Positions 3,198-36,143 of a DNA stretch of 36,143 nt are shown here, in pieces. How positions within the stretch are numbered: the first letter of the stretch is position 1; each line of letters begins with the position of its first letter. The notes under the pieces are model-generated. The model searched no databases and was not told the DNA's origin. It was given only the letters and a program-made list of their open reading frames with translations. The position numbers and the translations under genes were made by a program. This DNA is from Chrysochromulina tobinii (Eukaryota): assembly GCA_001275005.1 (NCBI GenBank), contig JWZX01001982.1, positions 1-36,143 on the forward strand, given 5' to 3'.

Positions 3198-3419
3198 TCG
3201 CGCGACGCGGACTTCTGGTGCGCCCCACGAGCCGCGACAGTCGCAATCGCGGCGTTCCCGACAAAGCGGAAGTTGCGAAAGCGAGGCGAGTTTCTGAAAG
3301 GCGAACTGTCCTTTTCAAGGCTGTGATCATACGCTCGCTTTGTCACCGGGGCGAGCTTTCGCGCGCTGTGGAAAACTGTCGCGTCCGCGAGCGCGTCCGA
3401 GCAGCACAAGGTCGCGTCC

Positions 3420-6022: not shown

Positions 6023-9000
6023 CCGTTACATAAAAACTTGCAAACCCCCAAAGTTTTCGGACAGGTAAAAGTCAATGCCAATGGTGCTGGACGTGAGTTC
6101 GGCAATCCCTCGTGCGGGCGCGCATTACCCAATGCCCTCGTCGAGCCCGATGGCCTGCTTCGCCCGCTGCTTCGCACGCCCATACCACGCTGCTCGGGGC
6201 CTCGGGAGACAGGCGTTGCGGCAGCCTCGACTGCGCGCCGTGGTCGCTGCGAGCGTTCTCGACGCGCCCTCGCGCCACGGCCGCCGCGGCCACCCGAGCT
6301 CCGAGGGGCGTGTGGGCGCGCTGCATGCGCGCCGCGACAGAGTGCGCGCCGCCGCCTCCCGAGCGTCACAGCGGAGCCGCGCGTGCCCCCCCCGAATGCG
6401 CAGGTGTCCGAGCGGGCAAAGGCTTGTAAAGCGCGGCGGACGCGATGAGCGACTCGATGGGCAAGGCCGTGTTCGAGGCCGCAAGGTACGGCAACGAGGC
6501 GGAGCTCACGCGGCTGATCGGCCTTGGAGGGAACGTCAACTGGCGCAATCCTGATGTGGTGCGCCGCCGCATGTGCCTCGCGTGGGCGCCCGCGTCCTCG
6601 CCGCCTCTGCTGCTTTCGCCGCCCGAGACGGCGCCAGTTCCCCAGAGCTCGCTGTACAGCGCGCTGCGGCGCTGGCTGCGCCGCCACCCCGCCGCCCCGC
6701 CGAGCTTGGCACACGCGTCCTCGTCGCATGGCGCGCGCCGCACCCCCGCGTGCTCGCCCACGCTCCTCGCGTGCTCTGGCATTCGATGACTCCGCGTGTG
6801 CTTCATTTGCCCAGCACGGAGGCACAGCTCTGATGTATGCCTCAATCAACGGGCACGAAGGGTGCGTCTGCATCCTCCTCGCGTCCGAGGCGATCGAGGT
6901 CAACGCCACGGTAAGCCTCGAGCATGCCCTCCCCCAGCACATGCGATGGATCCGCTTCCATGGTGTCATGTCATTCTTGGCCTCTCTTTTATCTTCAGGA
7001 GGTCAACCGTTGGACAGCATTGCATTACGCGGCAATCGAAGGCCGCCTCGCGATCGCCAAGCGCCTCCTCGAAGGGGGCGCCGATCCGACGCTTGGAAAC
7101 AATGTCGGCATGACGGCCCTCGACTACGCACGGCGGGAGGGCAAGAGGGCGAAGAGCGAGGTCGTGGCCCTGCTGAGCGAGCCCAGGTACGCGATGAAGA
7201 CCGAACGACGGAAGCGAACTCGAACGCAGCGGCCGCGCCACAGACAGCGCCCCGACGCACGCTCAGGCGCGCGCTCAGGCGCACTCTGGCGCACTCAGGC
7301 AGCACTCACAGGCAGCACTCAGGCAGCAATCAGGCAGCACTCACGAGCAATCACGAGCAATCAGTAGCACTCGGTCGACCCACGCCGTCGCCCCACGCCG
7401 TCGCCCTCGGAGAGGGCGCTGCTGCCACCACTGCCACTGACTGCCTTGCCAGCTTCACGATCACCCTTCGCAAGCCCTCGCGCTTCCTGATTGCATGCGA
7501 TGGCGCGCCGTGCTGGGCGCCACTGCACAGCGCCAACTGCGTGCGTTCCCCGTGCGCTTCGAAACAGGGATTGGAAGGCGGAGGCGTGCTGGAAGGCGGC
7601 GGCCAACAAGGCGAAGGCGGCCTTCGCAAGGTATGGCTCGGGGCTCGGGGTTTTCTCGCATTTCCCTCCCTCCTAACCCCTGTGATGGCCTTCTGTTCCT
7701 TCCTAAGTTGACTCCCTCCCGTGACTCATCTCGGATGGGCTGCCCCCGCTCCCTCATCCCATCCATCTCGCGCATGCAAGTGATCACCACGGCGTCTGTC
7801 TCCCTCCTCCCCTCCCCCTCTCGCTCCCATCCCTGAGGGCCACTCTAAGTGCTGTGTATCCATCCCTCTCGCGCAGGCTCGGCTTCGGCCTCGCCATTCT
7901 CTATCTCTTACATATGGCTCGCATCGCCGTGGCCCCGCCTGAGGTATCCGCCACTGCGGCATTGTACCAGGAAAGAGGGGGAGGCACGGCCCCTCGGAGC
8001 CCTCCTTTTCCTCCGTTTCCTCCGCCGCCATCACATCCGCCACCACCACCGCCATCCCCATCGCCTCCGCCATCCCCATCGCCTCCTCCTCCAACAAGGC
8101 CAATCCCATTGCCTCCTCCACCGCCTTGGCCTCCCCCACCGCGGCCATCTCCACCTTCGCCTCCACATGCACCATCACTATTCGCGCTCTTCGTCTCCGA
8201 TGACGCTGGCCTTGTTTCGGAGCAGCTAGAGGATGCGCTGCTGGTCCTCATGGTGCTGCTTGCGGTGTGCTTTTGCTGCGTGTCCTTTGCGCTCAGCTCC
8301 TCTCATGAGGTCGAGGCAACGCCGCGCAACGACCTCCCCAAGCCGGCCGTCCTCCCCGAGCCGCGCAACGGCCTCCGCGGCTACGCGCCGCTCGAAGAGA
8401 AACATGTGATACAGGTGGAGGAGGACGGCTTCGCCCTACGGGCTCTTCTGCCGGATGCCGATGCACTCTTGCTACAATCGCTCGAGGCGCTGCTCCAGAC
8501 AGAGCACCCAGAGTGGCTCGGAAAGGGCCAGGACGTGAAGAAAAAGTACGGCGAGTACGACTCGCTCAAGCTCGCGTGTGCGTGGAAGGTCGACCATCCA
8601 AGCAACCTGAAAAAGTACACGACCGGCGTGGAGCGCGTGCAGGAAGAGCTCAAGCGGCTCCAGAAGAAGGGCAAGAATGTCTCTTATGTGCCCGGCCTGC
8701 CCGTGAAGACGGATCGTGCGCGCGGCTTCACCCTCTCGCAGGCTTGCAATGAGGTCATCCTCTTGCATGGTGTCAACCCAGATCGGCTTCTAGACCTGCT
8801 GTCCACGGGCCTGAACGAGCACTTCTCAGGCACCGGCGCGGGCACCGCCTTCGGCGACGGCGTCTACCTAGCGGAGGACGCTGGCAAGACGGATCAGTAC
8901 GTCGGCCCCGACAGCGCGTACGACCCAAGCAGTGAGCTGCACAAGTGGCTGTACAGCGAAACCGTGCCCCACCCGGAAGACGTCCTCTACGTTCTCGTGG

Positions 9001-9522
9001 TGCGCGCGGCCCTCGGCTTCCCCGTGCGCACGCAGCGTACGCTGGACAATTCGAAAAAGGCAAAGACACATGACCTTCGAGCCGGACGGGTCAAATCGAT
9101 GGACGATGGTGCGCGCATCTTCCCCGTCAACTGCCGTGAGCTCTCGGCGGTGCCGGGGGTCATGCCACCAATCTTTCACCATTCGCTGATTGCCGAGCTG
9201 GGCAAGGATCTCATGCGCTACCGCGAGTTTGTTCTCTTCAACAGCAACTACGTGCACATCGACTACGTCATCGCATACCACCGCTACAATGGCGGCCAGA
9301 AGCTGCGTATGACTGACAGTCCCGTATGAGGCTCACAATCAGGCATAGCAAGTTCTGGACGCCGGCCAGCTTACGCGTGCTGGCGAGGAAGCCGGGAGCC
9401 GGGCATGCGGTCCATGGAGCCAGGGGGGGTACGGGGGGGGGCGTCTCGCGGTCGTCGCGTGTACGAGTGAATCGAATTTATCCAAAACGGAGCCGAGCTA
9501 CCCTGATCCCTGTTAGTGTTAC
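6023..9522 (+). repeat. Dispersed duplication, copy A (paralogous to 29541-34373)
   Basis: Alignable by eye from CCGTTACATA.AAACTTGCA (6023/29541) through the upstream region, exons, most introns and 3' flank to GAATCGAATTTATCC...GTGTTAC. Confidence 0.95.
6445..9329 (+). CDS. Ankyrin-repeat / TM / Pro-rich / TM / PARP-like ADP-ribosyltransferase protein, copy A (5 exons, about 637 aa)
   Basis: Predicted exons 6445-6558, 6815-6910, 6999-7186, 7568-7630 and 7877-9329. All introns are GT-AG with compatible phases (0,0,2,2), and the splice sites are conserved in copy B. Ankyrin motifs TALMYASINGHEGCV, TALHYAAIEGRLAIAKRLLEGGADP, TALDYA. TM ALLVLMVLLAVCFCCVSFAL. PARP signature LLHG...FGDGVYLAE...YREFVLF. 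Confidence 0.75.
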
Positions 9523-11368: not shown

Positions 11369-11591
11369 CTTGGAAGCGAGGAGTGAAATTGATGTGTGAA
11401 ATCATGTTCTTCTCTGAAAACATTGGGCATATGCTCGCAGAGCGGGAGATTCTCGTTTCGGAAGACCCCGAATTTCGCAAGTTTTCAGGGCGACGCTTGT
11501 GTGCGCGCGGGCCAAAACAAGCTTCAGCTCGCCTCCGTCCGCGCACGCACGGTCGTGCTGGGGTGTAGGCGCGCCGCTGCCCGGAGGCAGT

Positions 11592-18824: not shown

Positions 18825-18872
<48 letters not shown>

Positions 18873-21800
18873 CTCCTCCTCCTCCTCCTCCTCCTCCTCG
18901 TCTTCCTCCTCAACCTCGAGCTCCTCGTCCTCCTCAACCTTGGCCTTCTTGGCGCCCGCACCGCCCGCCTTGGCCGCCTTCTTCTCGGCTGCATACGTGG
19001 CCTTCTTGCCCTTGAGCCCGACCGCCAGCCCGACGCCCTCGAGCTGCAAGCCCGAGGCCAGCCGCTTCTGCATGTTGCCGAGCTTCGCGGCGCCCCCCCC
19101 GCGCCCGCACTCGCGTGCCGCCTTGCGCCGCGCCTGCCCGCCTTTGACGGCCTGGCGTGCCTCAGCGACCCCCTGTGCGCCGGCCGCCAGACGCGCGGCC
19201 TGCTCCTGCAGCCGCTCAGTCGCGCTGGCGTACGCGGCTCCAAAGTGGCGCATGTTGGTCTTCGAATGTGGCAGCGCATCGGCCCCGGCGAGGTTGGCGA
19301 GGCGCGCAAAGTACAGGTCGTTCCGCAGGAGCGTGATCGAAGCCACGACCACGTCGACCGCCTGAAGGTCGCGGATGGACAGCTTGTTGATGTCCGCCAT
19401 CGTGGCGATCGTGACGCACTTGAGCGCGCCGCCCGAGAACTTATGCACCTCCTTAGGCCACTGCTTGAGCAGGTGGGACGGCGCGAGCACAAGCGTCGCC
19501 TTGAGCGGAATGAAACCGTCTGCGCGCAGCGGTGGCGGCGGCGTGCGCGGCACTCGCGGCGTGGCGTCGATGAGCGCGATGGTGATCACCGTCTTGCCGT
19601 AGCCGACCTCATCGGCCAGCACGCCGCCACGCACGACGCGCGGCATGCTCGCACGGGCCTCGAGGCGCCAGCGCAGCGCGGGAAGCGTCGACTCGGCCAC
19701 CTCCGTCTCCATGAAGGGCGGCACGTCCTCGGCCTCGCGCGCGAGCATCCAGGAAAGCGAGCGCTGCTGCTCGATCCGGAGCTGCAGCACGGGCAGACTC
19801 TTCGGGCGCCCCGCAAAGGGCCCAAAGTGCTCCGGCTGCGCGGCGGGCGGGTCGCGCTTGTTGGACGAGAGCCGAAGCAGCGGTAGGGCGATTGGCTGGT
19901 CCGAGTGCTCCACCAGACGCCACTCAAGCGTTGTGCGCGTGGCGAGGCGCGAGGGGGGAATGAGCGCCAGCGCGCGCAGCGCGAGCGCCATTGGGTTGGC
20001 GCTGATCCGGATCGAGCCGATGGCCTTGTCGTGGGCGTCCGCCACGTCGAGCATCGCGCTCTCGCCGCCCGCGACGGCGCCAATCGAGTCGGCACGCCGC
20101 TCGACGACGAACGCGGGCGGACGCCTCTTGAGCCGCTGCTCGTACGCCCCAGCTTGCACCGGATCCTCGACGGCGACGATCTTGGAGCGCGACATGGGGA
20201 CCCACTGAAGCTGCGGCATCATGGGCGCGCAGGCCTCGCATGGCGAGCGGCCGTTGGCCCACGCCGACAGCGCCGACGGGTGCGAGAGCTTCGCCCATTC
20301 ACGGCACGCGGGCGGGAGTGTGAGGCGCTCCGTGATCCACGCAATCGAGCCAAAGGTCATCTTGGATTTCGTCAGCGGGATCAGGCCCCACTGGCCGAAG
20401 GTCCATTCGGAAACCTCGGCGCGGAGCAGCGGCACAGAGCAGCGCAGGAGCGGCACCGCCGCCGGCCCCTCCGCCGGCCCCTCCGCCGCTGGCCCCTCCG
20501 CTGGCGCCGTGTTGGGCACATCGAGCACGAGCGGCTGGGTGGGCGCGGCGATCGTCGCGTCCGCAAAGCGGATGGGCGTGAGCGTGAGGGCGGGCGCTGC
20601 CTTCCACAGCCCGCGCACCTGATGAGGGAGGCCATCAAGCTGATGAGGGAGGCAATCAAGCTGATGAGGGAGGCACTCACGCGCACCGTGGTGGGCTGAT
20701 GAGGGAGGCAATCAGCAATCAAGCGCGCACCGTGGTGTCCACCGCCTCCTCGGAGGGTCGGGGCTTCCCATGCTGGCGATCCAGCACGACCACATTCTTC
20801 TTGGACGAGCCGAGAGTCTTGCCGCCAGTGGCCGAATTCGCATCGCGGAGCTGGTCCTGTGGACCGGGCGTCGGTGTGGCCCACGGACGCCAATCCGAGG
20901 GTAGCTCGGCGTACACCTCGCGCGTCTCGCGATAGGGCAGCCGTTCAAACGAGGGCGCGAAGACGAAGTGGTCCTCATCCTCCTTGCCCGTGCGCGACGG
21001 GTCGAGGAAGAAGTAGCACTCCTTACCGTCTCCGCCCTTGACGCGCTTATGCAGAGAGCCCATCGCTCCTCCACACTGCTCGAGGAGCTCATACTCGCCC
21101 GACACGTCACCGTCGAGGGCCGCCCGTGCGCCCGCGCCGAGCGAGAAGGACCACGTGCGATAGCGTGAGTGGCCGTCCCAGGGACCGGTCAGACCGATCG
21201 TCGCCTGGTACGAGTCAATCGGAGTGCCGAGGGCGCCGACGACGATGGGCACAGTACGGATCGTAGGCAAACATAGTTCCCACTGACCCGCGAGCAGTTG
21301 CGCCGCGACGCCGCCGGTGCGCGCCGCGCGGCGGATGGCCGCGTCCGTCGGGTTGATGCTCATCCGTGCGACGGGCAGGCCGAGTAAGGTGCGAAGGTGG
21401 CCGCGCTGCGCGGGTTGGGTCGCGTAGAGCTTCCACTCAGCCTCCGTCGGTGTGAGCACCAGCTGCAGGGTGCCGTGCGCGCTCTTGTACCTGAGCAGGT
21501 GAGCCCTCGGCGGTCATCAGAGGCAAGCAGAGGCCATCAACGCCCATCAGCGGCCATCAGCGGCCATCAGCGGCCACCAGAGGCCATCAGCGGTCATCAG
21601 AGGTTATCAGAGGTCATCAGAGGTCATCAGAGGCCATTAGCGTACGTGGCCGTCCAGCGCTCGGCGCGCGTGACGCTCTCAAAGTAGAAGCGCGTGCTAC
21701 CAAGCTTGCGCAGGCTCTCTGCCCACGCGTTCCACAGCTGCTCCTCCTCGCTCAGGGGCGTGGCTGGCTTGCCGCCGCTCGCTTTGGAACGCTTCGAAGC

Positions 21801-22978: not shown

Positions 22979-25978
22979 CACACCTCCTTAATGACGGTCG
23001 CAATCAGAGGTCTTCAGAGGCCATCAGAGGCCATCAGAGGCGAATGAGATCGACGCACCTGGAGCGAGAGCACCTCCTGCCCGATCAGCGGCCCTCCGCG
23101 GTTCGTCACGTACGGCACCATGTTCGGCGTCAGGCACGGGCACACGCCCGGCTTGCCCGAGCCAGTCTCGCGGTCGACATTCTGCGACAGGTTCCAGATC
23201 TGCGTCTTGTACGCGCAGTCGATCCCCTTGGACACGTCACGCAGGTAATTAATGTCCATCAGGTCGAGCACCCGCTCCACCTGTGATGAGGGGGGCCATT
23301 CGCGCTCATCAGAGGCCATCAGAGGCCTTCAGAGGCCATCAGAGATCATCAGGGAGGCATGATCTCGAGTGGCGGCGCAGCGCACCTGCGCCGAGCCCCA
23401 GTCATGCCAGGCAAAGTCGGGCAGAGTCGCGTGCCCTTGGGAGACCCATCGCGTGAGCGGCCGCTTGTTGCCGAGGCACTCCTGCGTGCGCGCGCGCTCG
23501 TGGCGCGTGATACACCTTCCCCAATCGACGACCTTACGCTGGTCATTCTTGGGCTTCGAGAGCTCCATGCGGGCGCGATGCACGCGTGGGTCGTCGCTCG
23601 GCAACAGGAAAGCCTCGAGAGAGGACGAGGACGGGCGCGCCATCTCGTCAATCGACGCCTTCCACCGAGGGAGCTCGTTACAGCGCGCCCTGGTGGGCTT
23701 GGGGGCGAGGGGCGCCGCTGAGTTGCCCTCCTCGCCGCCGCCGGTGCCCGCCTCCTCGTCCGCCTCCTCGTCCGCCTCGTGGACCTTGGGTTTCGTTATC
23801 GCCTCCTTGGGCTTGGCGGCTGGTCCGCGCGCGAGGGCCGCCTTGAACCGATTGGGCGCCTTCATGTCGATTGCGAGCAGGTAGACGCGCGTGCGTGTGT
23901 GCGGCACGTAGTGGTTCTTCGTGTCGACGCGCAGAAAGGTTGCCGCGTAGCCCTCCAAGGCGTAATACTCCGTCATCTTCTCCCACGGGGCGCTGCACAC
24001 ATTCTCCTGGATGACGATGGGCGGTCGGTGGCGGCGCACCCATCCGAGCATCCCCCAGAACGTTTGGCCCGACTCGCCCTTCTGCTCGATGCCCTTCTGC
24101 TTCGTGTTCAAGTTGGAGTAGTCGACGCACGAGGTCCCCGCGATCAGCACGTCCACCTCGCCCGGCACCGGACGCTTGGCGCCGTACGCGGTGGTCGCGG
24201 CGTCGTTGCCGAGCTCGCGGATATCGCGGAAGAGCAGCGGCGGCGCAAAGTTGCGCTCGATGTACGCCTGAGAAGCAATCAGTGACGAGCAGTGACAATC
24301 AGTGGCTAGCAACGGCAATCAGTGGCAATCAGTGGCAAACGCTCGATGCACGCCTGAGGAGAAAGGCTCTCACGAACCATCAGCGGCGCTCTCAGCGGCA
24401 CTCAGGGGCTCTCAGTGGCAATCAACGGCACTCAGAGGCACCCAGAGGCTCTTGGGAGGTCATCGGGAGGTCCTCGGGTGGTCCTATCAGCAGCGTGCCG
24501 TCCTTTACCTGCTTGAACGGCTCGATCTCACAGGAGAAGACATGCTCCACGTTGATCGGCGTCCCGTGCTGCTCGTGCACCGCCTTGCAGATCAGGTCGA
24601 GCGCAAGCAGCGGCGACTCGGTCCCCGAGCACATCGTCGCCACTCGGATCGGCCGTCCCTGCAAGTCCATCGCGAGCCGCTTGAGAGAGAGACCCTCGAG
24701 GGCGCCGCCCTTGAGCTGCGCCTTGAGCTCCGCGTTCCTCACCATGTCGCGGAACATCTCGACGGGCTCGGTGATCACCGGCAGCTCATCCGACTGCTCC
24801 TCGGACATAGTGCGCGACGAGAGTTTGCGCGACGTGTCGCTCGCCGTCCACGTGGCCTGCTCCGCGCCCGGTGTCTGGCCCTTGAGGAGCGGTGCGGCTG
24901 AGCTCGCGGCTGATCTCGCGGCCTGCCGCTTGGCCGATTGGTCCGCGGCCGCCTTCGACTTGGACGCTGCGGCGGCGTCAAACGCTCCACTCGAGTCCTG
25001 CGAGCCCTTACCGGCGCGCTCCTGATCGCGTTCGCCCGCCGCATCGCCCTTGTCCTCGTCGCCGCCGTCCTCGTCGCCGTCGTCGTCGTCGTCGTCCTCG
25101 GGCGCCGCTGCCTTGGTCTTCTTCGGCGCCGCCTTGGCAACGCCCGCGCCCTTACGCGACGCCGCTGCCGCCTTCTTGGGCGCGGCCGGCGTCTTCGCCG
25201 GCGGTGCGGCAGGCGTCTTGGCCGGCGGCTTGGCCGGCGGCTTGGCCGGCGGCTTGGCCGGCGGCTTGCGCGAGCGTTTCTTTACGGGCTCTTTGAAATC
25301 GTCGTCCGAGTCGTCGACGGCCGCGGAGCCGTCCTCATCGTCCTCCGAGTCCTCATCGTCCGAACCGGACTCTTCAAAGCTCGCCGAGCTATCGTCCGAG
25401 TCCGACTCGACCTTCTTCTTGCCGCCGGCGCGCTTGGGGCGCGACGCGGCCGCCGCCTTCGAGGCTCCCGCCGCTGCCTTCTTGGGCAGCACGTCGTCCT
25501 CGTCCTCGTCCTCGTCGTCCTCTCCCGAGAGTTCCATATCGTCGAGTGCCTTCTCTTGCTTGGCGTAGTCGACGACCGGCCGTGCGCGGCGCGCGCGGCC
25601 ACCCGGGCTCTCCTGCGAGGATGTGCTCTCCGACGCGGCTTCGGCACTTGCGGCTTGAACCTTTTTGACTTCCTCGCTCGCGGCGTCCGCAACTTGCTTG
25701 ACGTTGTCGCTGAGGAGCTGGATGTACTCCGGCTCGACATCCTCCTCCTCCTCGCCATCGTCGTCGTAAAGGATGTTGAACGTGCCGTCCTGATTAACCG
25801 AGGTCACCGTGCCCTCGTACCATTTGGTCGCCTTCTCTGGCAGGACGGAGGCCATGTAGCGGGCCTTGACCCGGGCACCGGGCTTCAGCGTGCCACTCAC
25901 TGGGGCAGGCGTCTTGAAGGCGCCGCAGCCCACGTCACCAGAGGCCTTGGCACTGAGCGTGGGGGTGACCGACGACAT
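16538..25978 (-). CDS. DNMT5: DNMT5-type C5-cytosine methyltransferase / SNF2 ATPase with N-terminal Tudor-like domain (8 exons, about 2800 aa; apparent frameshift near 17410-17460)
   Basis: Exons 25978-24509, 24267-23386, 23280-23059, 22946-21646, 21490-20731, 20618-17721, 17602-17122 and 16951-16538, all GT-AG. MTase motifs ATMCSGTESP, SCEIEPFKQAYIERNF, AGTSCVDYS, QENV, PHTRTRVY, LAGNAM. SNF2 motifs GGVLADEVGYGKT, VVDEY, LSGTP, VLIFVQF, QAVGRVRRYGQ. RING-like remnant LSCCGH...C...C. Confidence 0.9.
16952..17121 (-). repeat. DNMT5 intron 7, filled with about 10-nt tandem satellite (GCACTCAGAG-like)
   Basis: The + strand reads tcagaggcac tcagaggcac tcagatgcac tcagatgcaa tcagatgcag...; GT-AG ends are on the - strand. 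Confidence 0.85.
18772..18935 (-). repeat. Coding trinucleotide repeat giving an Asp/Glu tract inside the SNF2 domain
   Basis: (TCC/TCG/GTC)n on + encodes EEDEELEVEEEDEEEEEEEEEEDEDEDED... Confidence 0.9.
20619..20730 (-). repeat. DNMT5 intron 5, built from tandem acceptor-like units
   Basis: Four copies of CTGATGAGGGAGGC on + (GCCTCCCTCATCAG on the sense strand). Confidence 0.85.
21491..21645 (-). repeat. DNMT5 intron 4 with (GGCCATCAGC/GGTCATCAGA)n decamer satellite
   Basis: About 12 decamer units at 21511-21640. Confidence 0.85.
24268..24508 (-). repeat. DNMT5 intron 1 with GGCAATCAGT/GGCACTCAG decamer satellite
   Basis: Units such as gcaatcagtg gcaatcagtg and ggcactcagg, ggcactcaga. Confidence 0.8.
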
Positions 25979-26176
25979 GTGCGTCGAGCGCCCGCAAACG
26001 ACGGTACTCGTGGTGATACGCGCCAAAAACGAATGTCGAGAACACGAAAACGTCGTCGCGGGCGTTCGATGACGCGCCGAAGTATACAGCAAGCCGCCCT
26101 GGCGTTCGCAACCGTGTTCAGAAAGTTTGGGGGCTTTCTGCCGATAGTTTCGTCACGAGACGCGACCTTCAGCAAT

Positions 26177-28929
26177 ATGCCGGCCGATCCAGGCAACACC
26201 TACCGTTCGATCGAGGCCTACCTCAAGGACCTTGAGGTGCGCCAGCAGCTCGAGAAGGCGCCGTGCGCCGCCGTCTTCATGCTCGGCTCGGAGGAGGTGC
26301 TCTCCATCCGGTACGGCAACCACCCGTGGATCGTGCGCGTGCGGTGTGAGCTGCCGACGCGGCCGCTAGGCCCGGGCGGCATGGAGGAGCCCGTGCGCGC
26401 GACATACATCGGCGCCAACTCTAACGAGGACACGCAGCGCTTCGCGGCCTTCGTCGAGGCGATGCGCACGATCGACGTCTTCTCGTGCGTGCACCTGAAG
26501 CTGGCCAAGCCGTCCGCGCGTGCGCTCGCGCACCTCGAGGAGTCGGACATTGTGTGCCTCGGCGACGGGCCGCACGTGCTGCAAACATGGAGGATGCTCT
26601 CCTTGAACGAGGAGTGCGTCCTCGAGCGCGTCAAGTGGCGCTACTACACAGGCGCCGTGCTGATCGGGCTGGGCACGGGCTGTCAGTTCCTTGGGCAGCG
26701 TTGGTGGGTGGGCGAGCCACGGCATGAGCTCGAGTCGCGCGAGGCGGCCAAGGCTGGTCAGCCCGACCCGCACGCTCACCAGCCGATCGAGGCGCGCTAC
26801 TGGGGCGAGAAGGCGACGGAGATTGTGCCGTGCCTTGTGGCGATCGACGATGCACAGGCGGAAGCGCTCGCGGAACTCCAAGGCGCGGGTGCGCTCTGCA
26901 TCGTGCTGCCGCCCAAGGGGTCCCTCATCTTCAACGTGGACGGCTGCCTCGAGCCGTGTGGCGCGCTGCTCTGCGAGTACCGGTATGATTGGAAGGCAAA
27001 GGAGGTGCGGATGGCAATCCTCTCGCCTCCGGATGAGACGACGAATGTGCTCGCATGCCTTTCGTTCCTCGAGCGGCGGACGGCACGGCGGCAGGCTCGT
27101 CGGCGCAAGGCGATCGGGCTGGTGGAGGACGCGCCGCTGCCCGAGGATGCAGCCGGTGATCCCCAGGAGGAGGGCGAGGAGGAGGAGGGCGAGGAGGAGG
27201 AGGGCGAGGAGGAGGAGGCGGAGGGCGAGGAGGCGAAAGAGGAGGCGCGCCGTGCCGAGCGCAAGGCGCGCGAGGAGAAGCATCAGTGGCGCGCACAGCT
27301 CGACAAGCGCAAGCGCGCCGAGGCCGAAGCTGAGCGTCTCACAGGTGTAACGGCTTTCAAGGCGGCGGATTGGGAAGGAGCTCTAGACGCCTTCACGAGG
27401 GCCTCTGAGCTCGCGCCCGACGACCACCGCGCTCACCTGAACCGGTCCGCTTGCTTACTGAAGCTGGGGCGCGAGCGCGAGGCCGTTCTCGCCGCCGACG
27501 TTGCGCTCCACCGATGCAAAGGCGCCGACGCGAAGGCTTGGTACCGTCGAGCGTCTGCATGGCTCGCTTCGGGCGAGTTCAACGAGTGCCTTGCGGACTT
27601 GGAGATAGCTCGGCGCATGGAGCCCGCGGATAAGGCTATAGGGACGCTCAAGGCCAAGGCTGAGGAGGAGCGCGAGACGGCCACGTTTAGCTTCTCAGTC
27701 GACCTCAAGCTCGCCCAGAATGAGGACGCCCAGGCTGCAGGCGAGCCAGTGCCGCACCCAAACCAGCTCCGGATGGGTCTGAAGCCTCGAGGCGATTTAC
27801 GCGCCGTGCGCACCATGAATGCAATCGAGGCTTTTGACGGGGCGAGCTTGACGTTGCGCGACGACACGCTCATCTTGGCGCACGCGCCGAGCCGAGCGCT
27901 CTCCGACGGAGCGACTCGGGTCCTCGCCCCGGCCTTCCTCGACCATCGCGCCCTCTTCTCTCTCGAAGCGTGCGCCAAGCGATCGTCGCTCGAGACGCTC
28001 GAGCTGCATGGCGTCGTGTTGGGCGCCTGGGGCGCGGCGTTCCTCGCGCGCGGTGCACGCCTCCAGGGAGGTGCGGGGCTCGAGCGCCTCTCTCTGGTCG
28101 AGTGTCGGCTGCGCGATGAGGGCGCCAGGTCGATTGGCTCCCTGCTCTCGAGGGGCAGTCGGCTCGTGGAGCTCGAGCTGAGCGCGAATCGAATCGGGGA
28201 TGAGGGGCTGCTCGCTCTCGCCACGGAGCTCGGTATGAATGAGTTCTTGCAGGTGCTGTGAACGGCTCGTCCCTGTGAATGCTTCTCGTCCCTGTGAACT
28301 GCATGCGTGAGCCTCACGCCTGCCTTTCCCAAACCTTCTTGCAGGTGCTGCTGCTTGCACGCAACCGGATCGGCGATAAGCGCATGGGTGCCTTGGCGAG
28401 GGCTGTGGGGCGCCACAGGGCGCTCCGATGCGTCGACCTCTCGTGCAATGCGATCCGGTTCCCAGGCGCGTGCCATCTCGCAGAAGCCGTGCGTGAGTCG
28501 GCCACGCTGCAGAAGCTGAGCCTGGCGGGCAACAAGCTGCGCGCCGATGGGGTCTTCCGTCTTGCACACGTGGCCATCGGGCACGCGAGTATGGCCGTGC
28601 TGGATCTGCGCGGTGTCGAGCTGCGCAAGGCAGACCGCCGGAAGCTCGACGGGCGCACGCGCTACACGCGGCTCACCTTTCTCATCGATCAGGGCGCGGA
28701 GGCGGATCGGGGAGCCTGGCAGGGGCGTGGCGGCGCGACGGCCCCTGGTGGAGGCGGCATGGTGATGGAAGACGAGTGCGCGCCGCCGCTGCCGCCGCCG
28801 CTGCCGCCGCCGCCGCCGGCGGCAGTGCCGGCCAGCGACGGCGCGATAGGGTCGGATGAGACGCCATCCAAGCTGAGCGTTGCAGCCTGGCTGGCCAGAG
28901 TAGGCAAGGCGGACGTAGCGTTGTATTGA
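26177..28929 (+). CDS. Peptidase-S51/class I GATase-like domain + TPR + RNI-like LRR protein, 2 exons
   Basis: ATG 26177, with intron 28253-28344 (GT-AG, phase 0). The N-domain ATYIGANS...FVEAM...LEESDIVCLGDG...RYYTGAVLIGLGTG resembles PepE/cyanophycinase-like folds. TPRs: GVTAFKAADWEGALDAFTRA, HLNRSACLLKLG, KAWYRRASA. LRRs: LERLSLVECRLRDEGA, LVELELSANRIGDEG, LQVLLLARNRIGDK, LQKLSLAGNKL. Confidence 0.8.
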
Positions 28930-29994
28930 GCAATTAGTACACGTTTCTGACGTTTCGTGTACAAATCCCTCCAAGTCGTGTATGTTAGTCGTGTGGCGTA
29001 TTAATAGACGAGAGTTCGGGCTTCGGCGTTTCAGGGGCTATTCTTGTTTCTCGTCGCTTAATAATTACGATTTCGGTATCTAGTATCGCCTATTCGATTT
29101 CGGGGTGCCCGCACGAGTAGTGCTTGGCGGCCTCGGCACCGCACGCACAGCAGCCGAGCCGCAGCGTAGAGCGTTTCGTGAGTTTTTCGTCGTTAGCTTG
29201 GTTGCTTTCATGCTTTCTGTGAAATTATAATATTATATTAACCAGTCGATCTGAAAACTCACAGAGAGACCGCGGGGAACCAAATCCTTACCGGATCCAC
29301 AGGCACGACATTGGCCCTTAACATGGCCCAGAACGCCTTGGTGTTCCGTTGCGCGTTAGCGGGCGGGTGCCGCTGCCCGGCTAGGCTATAGTTGACAGTG
29401 ACTCTGGTATGTGTAGACTATGTGTGTCCCGGCTCGGTAAGAGAGGCTTGTTAGAAAGAAACCATACCGGTCCGGCGGCTGGTCGTGCTATGCCGAACCG
29501 GCTCCCCCGGTGTCTTTTTACCGGTACCGGTAAGCACAGACCGTTACATACAAACTTGCAGAACCCCCAAAGTTTTCGGTGTACCATGGTACATTCGGAA
29601 CAGGGTAAAAGTCCTTGCCAATGGTGCTGGACGTGAGTTCGGCAAACCCTAGGCAAACCCCTCGTGCGGGCGCGCATTACCCAATGCCCTCGTCGAGCCC
29701 GATGGCCTGCTTCGCCAGCTGCTTCGCACGCCCACACCACGCTGCTCGGGGCCTCGGGAGCCAGGCGTCGCGGCAGCCTCGACTGCGCGCCGTGGTCGCT
29801 TCGAGCGTCCTCGACGCGCCCTTGCGCCACGGCCGCCGCGGCCACCCGAGCTCCGAGGGGCGTGTGGGCGCGCTGCATGCGCACCGCGACTGAGTGCACG
29901 CCGCCGCCTCTCGAGCGTCACAGCGGAGCCGCGTGCCCCCCCCCAATCCGCAGGTGTCCGAGCGGGAGAAGGCCTGTAAAGCGCGGCGGACGCG

Positions 29995-32900
29995 ATGAGC
30001 GACTCGATGGGCGAGGCCGTGTACAAGGCCGCAAGGGACGGCAAGGAGGCGGAGCTCAGGCGGCTGATCGGCCTTGGAGGGAGCGTCAACTGGCGCAATC
30101 CTGAGGTGCGCCGCCGCATGCCTCGCGTGGGTGCCCGCGTCGTCGCCGCCCCTGGTGCTTCGGTCGCCTCGCCGCCGACACGGCGCTCGCCCGACACGGC
30201 GCCATGTCCCCACAGCTTGCTGCACGGCGCGCGGCGGCGCTGGCTGTGCCGCCGACCCGCCGAGCTCGGCACACGCGTCCTCGTCGCATGGCGCGCGCCG
30301 CACCCCCGCGTGCTCGCCCACGCTCCTCGCGTTATGGCACTTGAGGACTCCGGTGAGGACTCCGGTATGCTTGTTGTGCCCAGCACGGATCCACAGCTCT
30401 GATATCGGCCGCAAACCACGGGCACGAAGGGTGCGCCCGACTTCTCCTCGAGTCCGAGGCGATCGAGGTCAACGCCACGGACGTAAGCCTCGAGCGTGCC
30501 CGCTCCCCAGCGATGGGTCCGCTTCCAACCTTCCATGTGTCGTGATTTCGTTCGTCTCCTCCCTTCTGTCTTCAGAACGGCGGAAGCTCAGCTCTGCATG
30601 GCGCGGCATACCACGGTCACCTCGCGATCGCCAAGCGTCTCCTCGAACGAGGCGCAGATCCGACGCTCCGAACCAATCCGAGGCTCGGAACCAAGCGCGA
30701 CTGGGGCAGCAAGACGGCCCTCGACAACGCAAAGAGGCAGAAAAAGTGGGAGGTCGTGGCCCTGTTGAGCGAGCCTAGGTACGCGGATGAAGACCGACCG
30801 ATGAAAGCGAATCGAACGCAGCGGCCGCGCCGTCTTGGGCACACGCCGTCGGCGGATTGCTGGCCGACGGCGAACAAACGGCGGCGACTCGCCATTGGAT
30901 GCGGCCGAGAGGACGCGACGGCCGACATGCGTCGCGTCAGAGTGCCTTGCAATTGCGCTTCCTTCCCAGGCGATGATTGATGCCGAGTGGGCGCGTGCCC
31001 AGCGCGCCGTGATGGGCACATCGGGAGTCGGCGGCACTGGCGGCCTGGGTGGCCACTCTCGTTGCGGCTGAGTTTGGCCGCACCGGCCGCGCCAAACGCT
31101 GCTGCCACTGCCTCTGGCTGCCTTGCCATCTTCACGACCACCCTTCGCAAGCCCTCGCGCTTCGTGATTGCATGCGACGACGCGCCATGCTGGGCAAAAT
31201 TGCTCAGCGCCAACAGCGTGCGTTCGCCCGTGCGCTTCGAAACAGGTGGGACACGGCGGCGGCCGCGAGAGAGGCGGAGGAAAGGGCGGCGGCGGCGGAA
31301 AGGGCGGCGGCGGAAAGGGCGGCGGCCGAGAAGGCAGCGGCGGACAAGGCGGCGGCCGACAAGGCGATGGCGGCCTTCCCTTGGTACGGCTCGGGGCTCG
31401 GGGTTTTCTCGCATTTCCCTCTCTCCTAACCCCTGTGATGGCCTTCTGTTCCTTCCTATGTTGACTCTCTCCCGTTTGCAATCCCGTGACTCATCTCGGA
31501 TGGGCTGCCCCCGCTCCCTCATCCCATCCCTCTCCCATCCCTCTCGCGCATGCAAGTGATCACCACGGCGTCTGTCTCCCTCCTCCCCTCCCCCTATCAC
31601 TCCCATCCCTGTGATGGCCACTCTAATTGCTGTGTATCCATCCCTCTCGCGCAGGCTCGGCTTCGGCCTCGCCATTCTCTATCTCTTACATATGGCTCGC
31701 ATCGCCGTGGCCTCGCCCGAGGTATCCGCCACTGCGGCATTGTACCAGAAAAGAGGGGGAGGCACGGCCCCTCGGAGCCGTCCTTTTCCTCCGTGGCCTC
31801 CGCCGCTATCGCCTCTCCCTTCGCGGCCTCCGCCATCGCCTCTCCCTTCGCGGCCTCCGCCGCCATCACATCCGCCATCACATCCGCCACCTCCACCGCC
31901 ATCCCCATCGCCTCCGCCATCCCCATTGCCTCCTCCGCCACCACCACCGCCATCCCCATCGCCTCCGCCATCCCCATTGCCTCCTCCTCCAACACGGCCA
32001 TTCCCATCGCCTCCTTCACCGCCTTCGCCTCCCCCACCGCAGCCATCTCCACCTTCGCCTCCACACGCGCCATCACTATTCGCGCTCTTCGTCTCGGATG
32101 ACGCTGGCCTTGTTTCGGAGCAGCTTGAGGATGGGCTGACTGTCACCGAGCAAGGCAAAGTTGCTGTCGGTGCGGCGGTCAGCGCGGCTACCGTTGCGGC
32201 CACGGCGGCCGTCCGCGCGGCCACCGTAGCGGCCACGGCGGCCACGCCGTACGTCTCCGCCGCGGCCGAGTCCATCAAGCTCGGTGACAACAAATCGTTG
32301 CTTGACGCGTATACGGGCATTCCGGCCGAATACCGGCCCGCTGTGGCCGTTGCGGTGCTCTTCTTCTTCTTCTTCTGTTTGCTACTGATGCTTCTGATCT
32401 GGCTGCCTGCGTGCGTGATGTGGCTTTACGGCTACGTGCGGATCGATCCCGATCCGCCGATCCCGATCCGCCGATCTAAGAACCGCTTCGCCGGCTTCGC
32501 CGTGCCACGCGTGATCACAATCGATATGTTGGAGGAATACAAGCGCCGAGTGAAATCGCTGGTTCCAAAAGGCATCAAGTACGAAGACTACTTCCCCCCA
32601 ATCGTTCTGTCGTATGCTTCGGGCCGCCGCCCCGACGATTGCGAAGGCTCCGGGCCCGGCGTGGTGTACGTCATGGGGCTGGCCGAGTTCCTCCATGATC
32701 GCGGCCTGCGGTGCTTCTCCGGGCTGCAAGTGCCCCCAGGCGTGGACTGGCAGACCTTTATGCTGCGCCTGACTGGCGAGAACGGGAAGCGTGAGAAGCC
32801 CAAGGTGCTCATCGTCCTCCTCACTGCGGCCTTGTACCAGTCCGAGCCCTGCCTGAAAGAGATTGACACGGCTATAAGGCAAGAGATACCCATCCTCCCA

Positions 32901-34055
32901 GTGCGTTTCGAGGATGATTTGCCCGGCAACACCGAGCAGTGGACAAATCTCAAGGGTGCGGAGTGGGAGATGCGGAAATTTCGAGTGCAGGAGAAGCTCA
33001 ACTCGCTCAACAACATCCCCAACCCCGGCACAGTGCTCGACAGACCCAGTGCTCTGGATGACATCATGGCGGAGCTCGATGCACGTGGTCTACCGGCATT
33101 GGCTGAGCCAGTGCCGGATGGCCAAGTGCAGGAGAACGGCTTCGCCCTCCGGGCTCTTCTGCCGGAGACCGATGCACCCATGCTACAATCGCTCGAGGCG
33201 CTGCTCAAGACAGAGCCTTCAGAAGAGCTCGGCACGGGCAGGGACGTGTCAAAAAAGTACGGCCCGTACGACTCGCTCAAGCTCGCGTGTGCGTGGAAGG
33301 TCGACCATCCAAGCAACCTGGACAAGTACACGACCGGCGTGAGGCGCGTGCAGGAAGAGCTCAAGCGGCTCCAGAATAGGGGCAAGAATGTCTCCAATGT
33401 GCCCGTGAAGACGGATCGTGTGCGCGGCTTCACCCTCTCGGAGGCTTGCAATGAGGTCATCCTCCTGCATGGCACCAACCCAGATCGGCTGCTAGACCTG
33501 CTGTCCACGGGCCTGAACGAGCACTTCTCAGGCACCGGCGCGGGCACCGCCTTCGGCGACGGCGTCTACCTCGCGGAGGATGCTGGCAAGACGGATCAAT
33601 ACGTCGGCCCCGACAGCGCGTACGACCCGAGCAGTGAGCTGCACAAGTGGCTGTACAGCGAAACCGTGCGCCACCCGGAGGACGTCTTCTACGTTCTCGT
33701 GGTGCGCGCGGCCCTCGGCTTCCCCGTGCGCACGCAGCGTACGCTGGACAATTCGAAAAAGGCAAAGACACATGACCTTCGAGCCGGACGGGTCAAATCG
33801 ATGGACGATGGTGCGCCCATCTTCCCCATCAACTGCCGTGAGCTCTCGGCAGTGCCGGGCGTCATGCCAACAATCCGTCACCATTCGCTGATTGCCGAGC
33901 TGGGCCAGGATCTCGTGCGCTACCGCGAGTTTGTTCTCTTCAACGACAACTACGTGCACATCGACTACGTCATCGCATACCACCGCTACAATGGCGACCA
34001 GAAGCTGCGTATGACCGACTCAATGACCGACTCAATGACCGACAGTCCCGTATGA
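29995..34055 (+). CDS. Ankyrin-repeat / TM / Pro-rich / TM / TIR / PARP-like ADP-ribosyltransferase protein, copy B (5 exons, about 983 aa)
   Basis: Predicted exons 29995-30105, 30384-30482, 30576-30778, 31246-31383 and 31655-34055 (GT-AG, phases 0,0,2,2). Ankyrins STALISAANHGHEGCARLLL, SALHGAAYHGHLAIAKRLLERGADP. TM AVAVAVLFFFFFCLLLMLLIWLPACVMWLYGYV. TIR IVLSYAS...LAEFLHDRGLRCF...VPPGVDW...KVLIVLLTAALYQSEPCLKEIDTA...IPILPVRFE. PARP LLHGT...FGDGVYLAE...YREFVLF. Confidence 0.78.
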
Positions 34056-34129: not shown

Positions 34130-34295
34130 GAGCCGGGAGCCGGGCATGCGGTCCATGGAGCCAGGGGGGGCGTCTCGGTCGGGAGAGCCGCGGGAGCCGG
34201 GCATGCGGTCCATGTGGAGCCGGGGGGGGGGGTCTCGGTCGGGAGAGCCGGGAGCCGGGCATGCAGTCCACCAGGAGCCGGGGGGGCGTCTCGCG
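34130..34295 (+). repeat. About 60-nt tandem repeat (3 units) downstream of copy B
   Basis: GGGAGCCGGGCATGCRGTCCA..GGAGCCRGGGGGG.GTCTC occurs three times; copy A has a single unit (about 9388-9447). Confidence 0.85.
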
Positions 34296-34655: not shown

Positions 34656-35963
34656 CTACGTGGCACGGGAGGCGGGCCCTCGGCCGGCCTTTCGAATGAA
34701 CTCATCCAACCAGTGCACCAACTGAGGCCCCGCCTTCATCCACGTGTCATTGTGCGTGCCCTCGGCCACCTTGTGCATCTCGACGGCGGGCGAGGCGACG
34801 GCGGCTAACTCGAGGAGACGCATTTGGGCAGGCGGGACTATCTCGTCCTTCATGCCTGCGATGAACAGGAGCGGCACCGTCACGTGCGCGATGTGCTCGA
34901 TGCTGCGCCATTGCAGCCGGAGCATGTGCCGGCGCACAAGAGCCCAATCGAGCCACGCGAACTTGGCCCCTCTGTGCCGCGCCAGCACACGCGCGAATCG
35001 AGGCAAGGCAAGTCAAGGCAAGTCAAGGCAAGGCAAGGCAAGGCAAGGCAAGGCACACGCGCGAATCGAGCGGGCGGCACGGTGGAGTCGGTCTGCAGGC
35101 ATTGCTCGGCACACGATGTGAGAGTGCATGCGCGGATTCAGCCTCGCTCTTGGCAGAGGCGGAGGTAGCCCGCAGTGTGCATCGGTGTCCATCAGTCTCA
35201 ATCCATGCCGATCAGTGCCAAAAGTCAGTGGCCCTTCTTACAGCATAGCCTCGATGGAGGTGAAAGTGTTCATCAACACAACCCCAAGTGGGAGAGGGAG
35301 AGTCGCATCTTGGGACTTGGACTTGCAGAGATCGCGAGCGAGCTGGATGGTGACGGCGCCGCCGAGCGAGGAGCCGAAGAGCACAATGCGAGTCGCGTCC
35401 ACGCGAGACTCGCCCACGAGCCATCGCCAAGCTGCATGCGCATCGCGCATCAATCCAGTTTCGTCGATCTGGACCTGATCCGAATTGCCATAGCCACGGT
35501 AGTCGTAGCACAGGACGTTGGCCCGTAGGTGGTGGCGCAGCACCTCGATGAGAGGGAGACGCAGCGACATCGGGCCTGCATTCTCGTGGGAGAAGAGAAT
35601 GGTTGGCGCCAACTCTCGGTTTGCCGCGGGGATGAACCATGCGTGGCATTTGACACCGTCAGAGCATTCGAGCTGGACGTCTTCGAACTCTAGGCCTCGC
35701 TCGGTTGGGGATTTGAAGCCCTCGGGGCAGTCCTGCGGGCGCTTCATCGTGCCGCCAAAGGCGGGGTTGGATGGGTTTGGCAGCGCTGGCACGTAGAGGA
35801 TCGACTCTTGCCAATGCCAAATCGAACCGAGGAGCAGTCCTCCAGCGACGATGACGTAGATCGTGACCCGCCCGTACCATGGCAACCCAACATCGAAGAG
35901 GAAGCTGGACAAGCGGTGGAAGAGAGCGTTTCCGATGAACGCGAGCGCGATCCTCCAGTACAT
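34656..35963 (-). CDS. ABHD13/Bem46-like alpha/beta hydrolase, 2 exons (about 345 aa)
   Basis: Exons 35963-35242 and 34971-34656 (intron 35241-34972). N-terminal TM, WQESILYVP, FSHENAG, YDYRGYGNS, nucleophile GSSLGG, NTFTSI, PLLFIAGMKDEIVPP, GTHNDTW. Confidence 0.9.
35001..35055. repeat. (AAGGC/AAGTC)n pentanucleotide microsatellite in the ABHD13-like intron, flanked by a duplicated GCACACGCGCGAATCGAG
   Basis: Read directly. Similar short pentamer runs occur at about 66-86 (AACTG) and 1260-1280 (ACTTG). Confidence 0.9.
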
Positions 35964-36143
35964 GCGGCTCGCCGCGCCGATGCACGGCGGGTGCTCGTGT
36001 GGCGACAAGAGAGGGCCGGCTGTGGGAACATGCCTTTCAGGGCCGGCCGCGCGTTAACCCCACCGTGAAGAGGGGAAAACATGGGAAAAGAAGAGAACCC
36101 ACTTGTTACGAAGACACCCGGCCCGTCGCCGGGGCGGATACAG

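What the first reader, a model, noticed from the sequence alone, without database searches (positions are those of the whole stretch)
29995..34055. Membrane-anchored Ankyrin-TM-ProRich-TM-TIR-PARP fusion: a candidate NAD+-consuming immune receptor in an alga
Seen: the fragmented ankyrin ORFs and the 814-aa ORF splice into one frame through four GT-AG introns conserved in copy A. The product has about 4 ankyrin repeats, an Ala/Glu/Arg helix, a hydrophobic segment (LGFGLAILYLLHMARIAVA), a Pro-rich stalk and a strong TM. These are followed by a TIR_2-like domain keeping the alphaC Glu (PCLKE, codon 32859-32861) and a PARP-like domain with an intact H-Y-E triad (LLHG 33468, GVYLA about 33566, YREF 33927). 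Known: catalytic TIR domains (SARM1, plant TNLs, bacterial Thoeris) cleave NAD+, PARPs transfer ADP-ribose, and tankyrases couple ankyrin sensors to a PARP. Inference: two TMs would put ANK, TIR and PARP in the cytosol with the Pro-rich loop outside, giving a sensor plus two NAD+-consuming effectors in one chain. I do not recognise this architecture from any described family.
Basis: partly seen in the sequence, partly recalled or inferred. Interest (0 to 1): 0.92.

Follow-up and report, generated by a model that had tools for sequence, protein, structure and literature searches.

The report
Algal ankyrin-TIR-PARP membrane receptor gene
A freshwater alga carries an intact spliced gene that joins fast-changing ankyrin repeats, two predicted membrane spans, a TIR domain and a PARP domain in one chain; it likely works as an immune sensor that spends NAD+ when triggered, and it is one product of a gene family that swaps such parts.

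Summary
The gene is real. Five exons (29995-34055) give an open 983-aa frame, and RNA contigs of close relatives join all four introns. The TIR fold is confirmed (pLDDT 89.5; RPS4, RPP1, SARM1 matches). The TIR Glu and the PARP H-Y-E triad are kept family-wide. The host is Chrysochromulina-like. New here: copy A in the window lacks the TIR. TIR and PARP are separately expanded, shuffled modules; their tandem appears only in near-identical relatives (12 of 283 proteins). Ankyrin binding-face codons change faster than synonymous sites in 2 of 3 pairs, while PARP core sites are conserved (omega 0.15). The TIR has Pro at the WxxxE Trp, which argues for plain NAD+ hydrolysis or scaffolding rather than cyclic-ADPR signalling. 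Topology, enzyme activity, ligand and immune role are untested; no single transcript spans the gene. No printed TIR-PARP fusion was found. Verdict: new variant of shuffled immune-receptor families.

The parts
29995..30105 (+). Exon 1: start codon and first ankyrin repeat; in-frame stop at 29977-29979 upstream, no N-terminal hydrophobic signal
   Evidence: junction to exon 2 in an RNA contig of a relative
30384..30482 (+). Exon 2: one ankyrin repeat (99 nt, phase 0 on both sides)
   Evidence: joint 30482/30576 GT..AG in run X3
30576..30778 (+). Exon 3: ankyrin repeats 3 and 4
   Evidence: Pfam Ank 1.7e-7; 467-base skip in run X3
31246..31383 (+). Exon 4: Ala/Glu/Arg/Lys repeat helix (spacer)
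   Evidence: joint 31382/31654 GT..AG in run X1
31655..34055 (+). Exon 5: TM1, Pro/Ser stalk, Ala-rich stretch, TM2, TIR, PARP, stop
31656..31712 (+). Hydrophobic segment 1 (predicted TM or signal anchor; marginal; ends in an A-x-A motif)
   Evidence: Kyte-Doolittle 1.81; identical in copy A and in C. parva model P0238
31776..32075 (+). Pro/Ser-rich stalk (63% Pro, 19% Ser); lies inside an in-frame GT..AG stretch 31722-32123 that a C. parva gene model lacks
   Evidence: RNA contigs read through both ends; P0238 lacks it
32157..32276 (+). Ala/Val/Thr-rich stretch, moderately hydrophobic; absent from copy A
32343..32399 (+). Strong TM2, followed by Cys and a basic flank (6 K/R against 2 D/E in 25 residues)
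   Evidence: Kyte-Doolittle 3.26; charges
32595..33089 (+). TIR domain; catalytic-position Glu at 32859-32861, Pro at the WxxxE Trp position (32847-32849)
33129..33998 (+). PARP (ART) domain with His 33468, Tyr 33567, Lys 33588, Tyr 33600, Glu 33927
6445..9329 (+). Paralog, copy A: ANK-helix-TM1-Pro-TM2'-PARP, 636 aa, five exons (6445-6555, 6815-6910, 6999-7186, 7568-7630, 7877-9329), no TIR

Best explanation
This is an intact, spliced gene of a Chrysochromulina-like alga whose product is predicted to be a two-pass membrane protein that likely acts as an immune receptor, with a fast-evolving ankyrin sensor and a TIR-PARP effector pair on the cytosolic side. Shown: one reading frame, splicing in close relatives, TIR fold, retained catalytic residues, fast ankyrin-face change, module shuffling. 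Inferred steps: (1) the four ankyrin repeats bind a variable non-self or altered-self protein at a membrane; (2) binding clusters the anchored chains; (3) the TIR domains assemble and, lacking the WxxxE Trp, hydrolyse NAD+ to linear ADPR or act mainly as an assembly scaffold; (4) assembly brings the H-Y-E PARP domains together to ADP-ribosylate themselves or the bound target; (5) the output is NAD+ drain or target marking that limits a virus or parasite. The gene is one recent combination from a repertoire in which sensor, anchor and effector cassettes are exchanged between paralogs.
For: Splicing and frame. TIR fold; Glu in 57 of 57 aligned sequences. PARP: Tyr, Lys, Tyr, Glu in 89 of 89, His in 88 of 89; best PDB match tankyrase-1 ART domain, E 6e-20, with the Glu aligned. 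Purifying selection where distant homologs are conserved: omega 0.15 (83 codons), 0.49 (78), 1.02 (137) over 9 copies. Ankyrin binding-face codons: pN 0.37, 0.35, 0.41 against pS 0.16, 0.23, 0.12 (p 0.0095, 0.11, 0.0003); control helix face pN 0.13, 0.08, 0.10. An allele of gene B in another assembly differs in ankyrin exon 1. The same TIR or PARP is fused to ARM, kinase, LRR, ankyrin, WW, GTPase, Hint and helicase domains. Independent TM anchors precede these domains in 35 of 180 proteins with 60 or more upstream residues, many with a basic C-flank. The architecture recurs with another linker: C. parva models P0238 and P0002 overlap by 26 residues and P0275 bridges TM2 to TIR-PARP. TIR genes, some with TM, are induced by virus in G. 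huxleyi (PMC12489294). C. parva has lytic viruses (PMC12085832 abstract start).
Against: No activity, ligand, localisation or infection data for this gene. No listed RNA contig spans the gene, and paralogs are mosaic, so junction contigs may come from different copies. Pro replaces the alphaC Trp in 52 of 57; the W-to-A change lowers or removes NADase activity in AbTir, SARM1, L6 and ROQ1 (10.1101/2022.05.07.491051), so the TIR may be weak or inactive. Copy A versus B dN/dS is 0.78-0.97 and the pairwise median for PARP is 0.90 over 36 pairs. One of three ankyrin pairs is not significant, the pairs are not independent, and ankyrin surface positions vary in any ankyrin family. TM1 is marginal and a third hydrophobic stretch could flip the topology. 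A C. parva model omits the Pro stalk. H-Y-E does not guarantee polymer synthesis (recalled: PARP3, PARP4).
Confidence: 0.5

Rival explanations
1. A near-neutral chimera: a very active duplication and recombination process joins expressed modules, and this particular combination has no role of its own, even if some family members do.
For: TIR+PARP only in relatives with TIR identity of 82% or more (12 of 283; 1 of the best 150 clusters). Mosaic nearest neighbours along the chain. dN/dS near 1 between copies A and B. Copy A lacks the TIR.
Against: Open frames in 9 of 9 PARP copies examined, omega 0.15 at core sites, ankyrin-face excess, and several linker variants of TM2-TIR-PARP retained. These show constraint on the modules, less so on this combination.
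Confidence: 0.17
2. A cell-surface guard: the extracellular Pro/Ser stalk and TM2 sense damage or attachment, and the ankyrin part is cleaved off at the A-x-A site after TM1 or is only accessory; TIR-PARP signals inward as in a type I receptor.
For: TM1 is marginal and ends like a signal peptide (motif reading recalled). Pro-rich stalk-TM-basic flank-PARP occurs in L012 with no ankyrin in the sequence held. G. huxleyi has ectodomain-TM-TIR genes induced early in infection.
Against: The fast change sits in the ankyrin face, not shown for the stalk. The stalk is a low-complexity region with no Pfam match. L017 has ankyrin and PARP with no TM.
Confidence: 0.15
3. A tankyrase-like housekeeping regulator: ankyrin repeats recruit host substrates at a membrane, the PARP marks them for turnover or traffic, and the TIR is only a polymerising scaffold in place of SAM.
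For: ART domain closest to tankyrase among solved structures. Ankyrin+PARP arose repeatedly in eukaryotes (PMC4245714; PMC2964712). TIR lacks the Trp.
Against: Host-substrate binding predicts a conserved ankyrin face; it is the most variable part. TIR Glu is kept in 57 of 57. No one-to-one conserved ortholog was found outside close relatives.
Confidence: 0.12

Closest known systems
Tankyrases (TNKS1/2, PARP clade 4)
   Same: N-terminal ankyrin repeats and C-terminal H-Y-E ART domain; tankyrase-1 is the best PDB match of the family profile.
   Different: [quoted passage not shown]
Catalytic TIR immune proteins (SARM1, plant TNL RPS4/RPP1, SPARTA TIR-APAZ, AbTir)
   Same: TIR fold with Glu in helix alphaC, joined to a repeat sensor.
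   Different: No NB-ARC, SAM, ARM or Argonaute partner; Pro at the WxxxE Trp; PARP fused behind the TIR; membrane anchored.
Gephyrocapsa (Emiliania) huxleyi virus-induced TIR genes (PMC12489294)
   Same: Haptophyte TIR genes with conserved Glu, some with TM helices.
   Different: The paper reports no NBS or LRR partner domains; 'PARP' and 'ankyrin' do not occur in its main text. Orthology to this TIR family was not tested.
Ectocarpus ROCO-LRR and NB-ARC-TPR candidate receptors (PMC3341825)
   Same: Algal multigene families with repeat-per-exon, phase-0 structure, diversifying selection on repeats and gene birth and death.
   Different: Here the repeats are ankyrins, only exon 2 is a symmetric phase-0 single-repeat exon, evidence for repeat-exon shuffling is one partial duplicate (L017), and the effector cassettes are also exchanged.
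Membrane-anchored and ankyrin-bearing PARPs (PARP16; sponge TM-PARP; clade 1-ank PARPs)
   Same: TM+PARP and ankyrin+PARP each have precedents (PMC4245714 passages).
   Different: None of the passages seen combines both, or adds TIR; 'TIR' has 0 occurrences in that paper and in PMC2964712.

Membership tests
TIR domain superfamily | Flavodoxin-like TIR fold | tested here: met
   AlphaFold2 with 57 sequences, pLDDT 89.5; Foldseek top hits all TIR, TM 0.70 to RPS4; Pfam TIR_2 above cut-off.
Catalytic TIR NADases | Glu in helix alphaC | tested here: met
   Glu in helix 85-96 of the model, 57 of 57; equivalence to the catalytic Glu read from the motif, not from a residue-level superposition.
Catalytic TIR NADases | NAD+ cleavage on self-association | not testable with these tools
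   Needs an assay.
cADPR-cyclising TIRs | Aromatic residue at WxxxE position | tested here: not met
   Pro in 52 of 57, Phe or Tyr in 2; rule from 10.1101/2022.05.07.491051.
PARP/ARTD family | PARP catalytic domain with H-Y-E triad | tested here: met
   Pfam PF00644; alignments to tankyrase-1; conservation.
PARP/ARTD family | ADP-ribosyl transfer, mono or poly | not testable with these tools
   Needs an assay.
Tankyrase (clade 4) | 15-18 ankyrin repeats | tested here: not met
   About 4 repeats; definition.
Tankyrase (clade 4) | SAM domain before the ART domain | tested here: not met
   TIR occupies that place; no SAM hit.
Tankyrase (clade 4) | ART domain groups in clade 4 by phylogeny | not tested
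   Only best-hit similarity; no tree with reference clades was built.
Toll-like receptors | LRR ectodomain, single TM, TIR (definition recalled) | tested here: not met
   No LRR in the long ORF or the stalk region.
NLR / TNL | STAND NTPase (definition recalled) | tested here: not met
   No NB-ARC or NACHT hit.
Ectocarpus-type shuffled repeat receptors | Repeat-per-exon with phase-0 introns | tested here: inconclusive
   Introns 1 and 2 are phase 0 at equivalent repeat positions; exon 3 holds two repeats; one partial exon-2 duplicate in L017.
Ectocarpus-type shuffled repeat receptors | Diversifying selection on repeat surface | tested here: inconclusive
   pN above pS in 3 of 3 pairs, significant in 2; only three DNA copies.
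Two-pass membrane protein | Two inserted TM helices, both termini cytosolic | tested here: inconclusive
   Hydropathy and charge only; no topology predictor available.

The most novel reading that the evidence does not exclude
Chrysochromulina-type haptophytes run a combinatorial innate immune repertoire: hypervariable ankyrin sensors are recombined with membrane anchors and exchangeable NAD+-consuming effectors (PARP, TIR, TIR+PARP), and in this member TIR assembly switches on a membrane-bound PARP, a TIR-to-PARP coupling in one chain for which no description was found in the searches made.
Probability: 0.3. Interest if true: 0.87.

Novelty: new variant of a known kind. Interest (0 to 1): 0.66.

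Why it matters
Antiviral mechanisms of microalgae are largely unknown; PMC12489294 states that TIR-based antiviral systems had not been described in microalgae. This gene gives a concrete, clonable candidate in a genus with cultured lytic viruses. It also joins two NAD+-consuming immune domains in tandem, which allows a direct test of whether TIR assembly can drive a PARP and of what a TIR with Pro at the WxxxE position produces. The natural pair of paralogs with and without TIR is a built-in control.

Tried and rejected
Single-sequence fold of the TIR failed (pLDDT 39.6). A joint TIR+PARP alignment misplaced the TIR-only rows and was dropped. Sequence and profile searches of the TIR against PDB found no TIR; only the fold search did. 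No relative of either domain in viral contigs; the best viral structural matches are TIR proteins of Tetraselmis virus 1 and Chrysochromulina ericina virus at 13-16% identity, so no viral origin is shown. A 70-residue domain in front of PARP in L017, L008, L014 looked SAM-like from recall, but Pfam, PDB and profile comparison with tankyrases gave no support. The domain after TIR in P0027/P0028 looked HET-like from recall; Pfam gave no such hit and the Atlas returned only unnamed haptophyte clusters. 'Separate genes' was rejected by the intron-4 contig. 'Pro stalk is an intron' was disfavoured, not excluded: RNA contigs cross both ends, but joint tables were cut. One search used wrong L017 exon-1 coordinates; replace it. 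The CpV genome paper's main text has no hit for macro domain, ADP-ribos, TIR, NAD, PARP or ankyrin. Four look-ups of earlier scan findings returned nothing.
Full report
Observation. The five exons proposed for the locus (29995-30105, 30384-30482, 30576-30778, 31246-31383, 31655-34055) are bounded by GT-AG and translate to 983 aa without a stop. An in-frame stop lies at 29977-29979, so the ATG at 29995 is the start and there is no N-terminal signal peptide. Pfam finds Ank on the exon-3 frame and TIR_2 and PARP above their curated cut-offs on the long ORF. A paralog at 6445-9329 (copy A) has the same four introns and an open 636-aa frame; it shares ANK, TM1, the Pro stalk and PARP, but has another TM2 and no TIR.

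One transcript? Eighteen runs hold parts of the stretch, none more than 31% of the words; six were laid. Poly(A) run X3 has joints matching introns 1, 2 and 3 at depth 38.3 in a relative about 91% identical. Run X1 has a contig that joins exon 4 to exon 5 at GT..AG, 59 bases on the short side; this is the junction that links the ankyrin part to the long ORF. Most of intron 4 has no cover in 4 of 4 runs while exon 5 is covered in 3 of 4. Near-identical RNA contigs tile much of exon 5, including 33002-33165 across the TIR-PARP boundary with 3 differences. No listed piece spans the gene, tables were cut, one contig starts 6 bases inside intron 4, and many laid contigs are only 90-95% alike, so the support is by overlapping pieces from a multigene family. 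L001 holds the gene with 0 differences in 4061 bases; L002 differs near the 5' end. These may be the same culture and are not independent support beyond excluding a single-assembly error.

Organism and spread. The closest named proteins are from Chrysochromulina parva and C. tobinii (84% over TIR-PARP, 94% over exon 3). TIR and PARP occur together in 3 of 114 hits, 1 of the best 150 of 1609 cluster representatives and 5 of 94 TIR hits; across 283 fetched proteins 82 have the TIR, 184 the PARP and 12 both, all with TIR identity of 82% or more. None had Ank, TIR and PARP in one entry, but most entries are unspliced gene calls. C. parva model P0238 runs ANK-helix-TM1-Ala-rich-TM2-linker and its last 26 residues equal the first 26 of model P0002, which is TIR-PARP; P0275 bridges TM2, that linker and TIR-PARP. 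The full architecture therefore likely exists in a second form; adjacency of the two models was not checked.

Shuffling. The same TIR or PARP is joined to ARM, kinase, LRR, ankyrin, WW, GTPase, Hint, EF-hand and helicase domains. Copy A's TM2 precedes PARP here, TIR-PARP in P0001 and TIR plus an unnamed domain in P0027/P0028. L017 splices to an open 689-aa ANK-helix-unnamed domain-PARP without TM. Gene B's nearest neighbour changes along the chain: 0-1 differences to P0267 in the first TIR windows, but 3 to P0002/P0268 against 12-13 to P0001/P0266/P0267 in the PARP N-terminal window, which points to recombination or gene conversion. Gene B is thus a recent combination.

Domains. With a 57-sequence alignment AlphaFold2 gives a five-stranded TIR fold at pLDDT 89.5; Foldseek ranks RPS4, RPP1, SARM1 and SPARTA TIRs first; the Atlas agrees. 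The alphaC Glu is invariant in 57 of 57, but the WxxxE Trp position is Pro in 52 of 57. Manik et al. (10.1101/2022.05.07.491051, passages) report that all cyclising TIRs have an aromatic residue there and that W-to-A lowers or abolishes NADase activity in several TIRs. Cyclic-ADPR signalling is therefore unlikely; hydrolysis to linear ADPR or a scaffold role remain. The PARP keeps His in 88 of 89 and Tyr, Lys, Tyr, Glu in 89 of 89; the profile matches tankyrase-1 best (E 6e-20) with the Glu in register.

Selection. Pairwise dN/dS is near 1 (0.78-0.97 for A versus B; median 0.90 over 36 PARP pairs), which alone fits neutrality. Splitting 298 PARP codons by conservation in 66 distant homologs gives omega 0.15, 0.49 and 1.02 (overall 0.59) on 9 DNA copies, namely A, B and 7 of 38 loci, the rest left out as duplicates, intron-bearing, partial or distant; recombination weakens this estimate. 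In 11 ankyrin sequences (A, B and 9 of the 28 hits, chosen as complete and spliced) the binding-face positions have mean entropy 1.60 bits against 0.23 in the framework; that position set was recalled from ankyrin design and chosen after seeing the A-B alignment. With the strict DARPin positions (recalled) pN exceeds pS in 3 of 3 pairs among A, B, L017 (p 0.0095, 0.11, 0.0003), while a control helix face does not. L002 carries a different exon 1 on an otherwise nearly identical gene B. Introns 1 and 2 are phase 0 at the same repeat position, and L017 has a partial exon-2 duplicate, recalling Ectocarpus receptor candidates (PMC3341825, abstract and passages).

Topology. TM2 is strong, with Cys and a basic flank after it; TM1 is marginal; gene B has an extra Ala-rich stretch. 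Independent TM anchors, often with poly-Arg C-flanks, precede the same TIR or PARP in 35 of 180 proteins (74 with short upstream parts dropped), which supports cytosolic effectors. Cytosolic ankyrins follow from the lack of a signal peptide. The stalk lies in an in-frame GT..AG stretch (402 nt in B, 282 in A) that P0238 lacks; RNA contigs cross both ends, so it is exonic in at least some transcripts.

Mechanism. Most likely (0.5) a membrane-anchored immune receptor: variable ankyrin face binds a foreign or altered protein, clustering drives TIR assembly, and NAD+ is spent by TIR hydrolysis and by the adjoining PARP. All functional steps are inferred. Rivals: near-neutral chimera (0.17), surface guard with the stalk as sensor (0.15), tankyrase-like host regulator (0.12). 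Context from print: G. huxleyi TIR genes respond to virus, some with TM helices (PMC12489294; abstract, passages, section 20, and a term search of 2 supplements showing only the first places); haptophyte giant viruses carry TIRs (PMC9503650, passages); C. parva has lytic viruses (search listing).

Comparison and novelty. Not a tankyrase (4 repeats, no SAM; PMC2964712 passages), TLR or NLR. Ankyrin+PARP and TM+PARP each have precedents (PMC4245714 passages; 10.64898/2026.07.25.740670 passages). Searches for 'TIR-PARP' (0 papers), TIR+PARP+haptophyte (1), Chrysochromulina+ADP-ribosyltransferase (1), PARP+TIR+Emiliania+ankyrin (0) and three broader queries (listings only, plus passages of PMC8195603) showed no such fusion; the library lacks most subscription papers, supplements of domain surveys were not seen, and InterPro could not be queried. 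Verdict: a real, new architecture within a known kind of phenomenon, lineage-specific shuffled immune-receptor candidates; interest 0.66.

Noticed in passing
L017:3713-6998: Paralog splicing to an open 689-aa ANK-helix-unnamed 70-aa domain-PARP with no TM, a partial duplicate of ankyrin exon 2 and an intron inside the PARP; the unnamed domain also precedes PARP in L008, L014 and 8 fetched proteins. SAM-like by recall only; tools gave no support.
   Followed up: partly
P0027, P0028, P0280, P0281 (C-terminal ~180 aa): Copy-A-type TM2 and TIR followed by an unnamed haptophyte domain (HET-like by recall, not confirmed) instead of PARP; P0028 and P0266, and P0281 and P0268, have contigs of equal length, hinting at two-gene clusters with other effector pairs.
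   Followed up: partly
L004:1-790 and L016:1-790: Two assemblies show a tandem duplicate of copy A's ankyrin exons 1-3 that is not in the window (collapsed or polymorphic).
   Followed up: partly
L002:3405-3700: Gene B with a different ankyrin exon 1 and intron 1, the rest nearly identical: allele, gene conversion or assembly mosaic.
   Followed up: partly
L027-L030: PARP copy whose two halves lie in opposite orientation in four contigs (inversion-broken copy).
   Followed up: no
window 33738-33798: A roughly 14-codon insertion in the PARP domain present in A, B, L005, L007, L008 and absent from other paralogs; the loop between His and Tyr also varies among paralogs.
   Followed up: no
P0198, P0202, P0206, P0216, P0221: Distant members of this PARP family are fused to SF1 helicase (AAA_11/AAA_12, weak ZNFX1 hits), and others to kinases.
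   Followed up: no
window 34000-34055 and 34130-34290: Short tandem repeat extends the C-terminus of gene B (three near-copies of a 12-base unit); repeated 50-60 base units follow the stop.
   Followed up: no
window 1346-2386, 3327-4712, 11418-14978, 17712-20711, 24914-28261, 35238-36053: Neighbouring ORFs are ordinary eukaryotic genes: CCDC22, F-box, ARM repeat, SNF2, TPR/LRR, alpha/beta hydrolase (Pfam).
   Followed up: no
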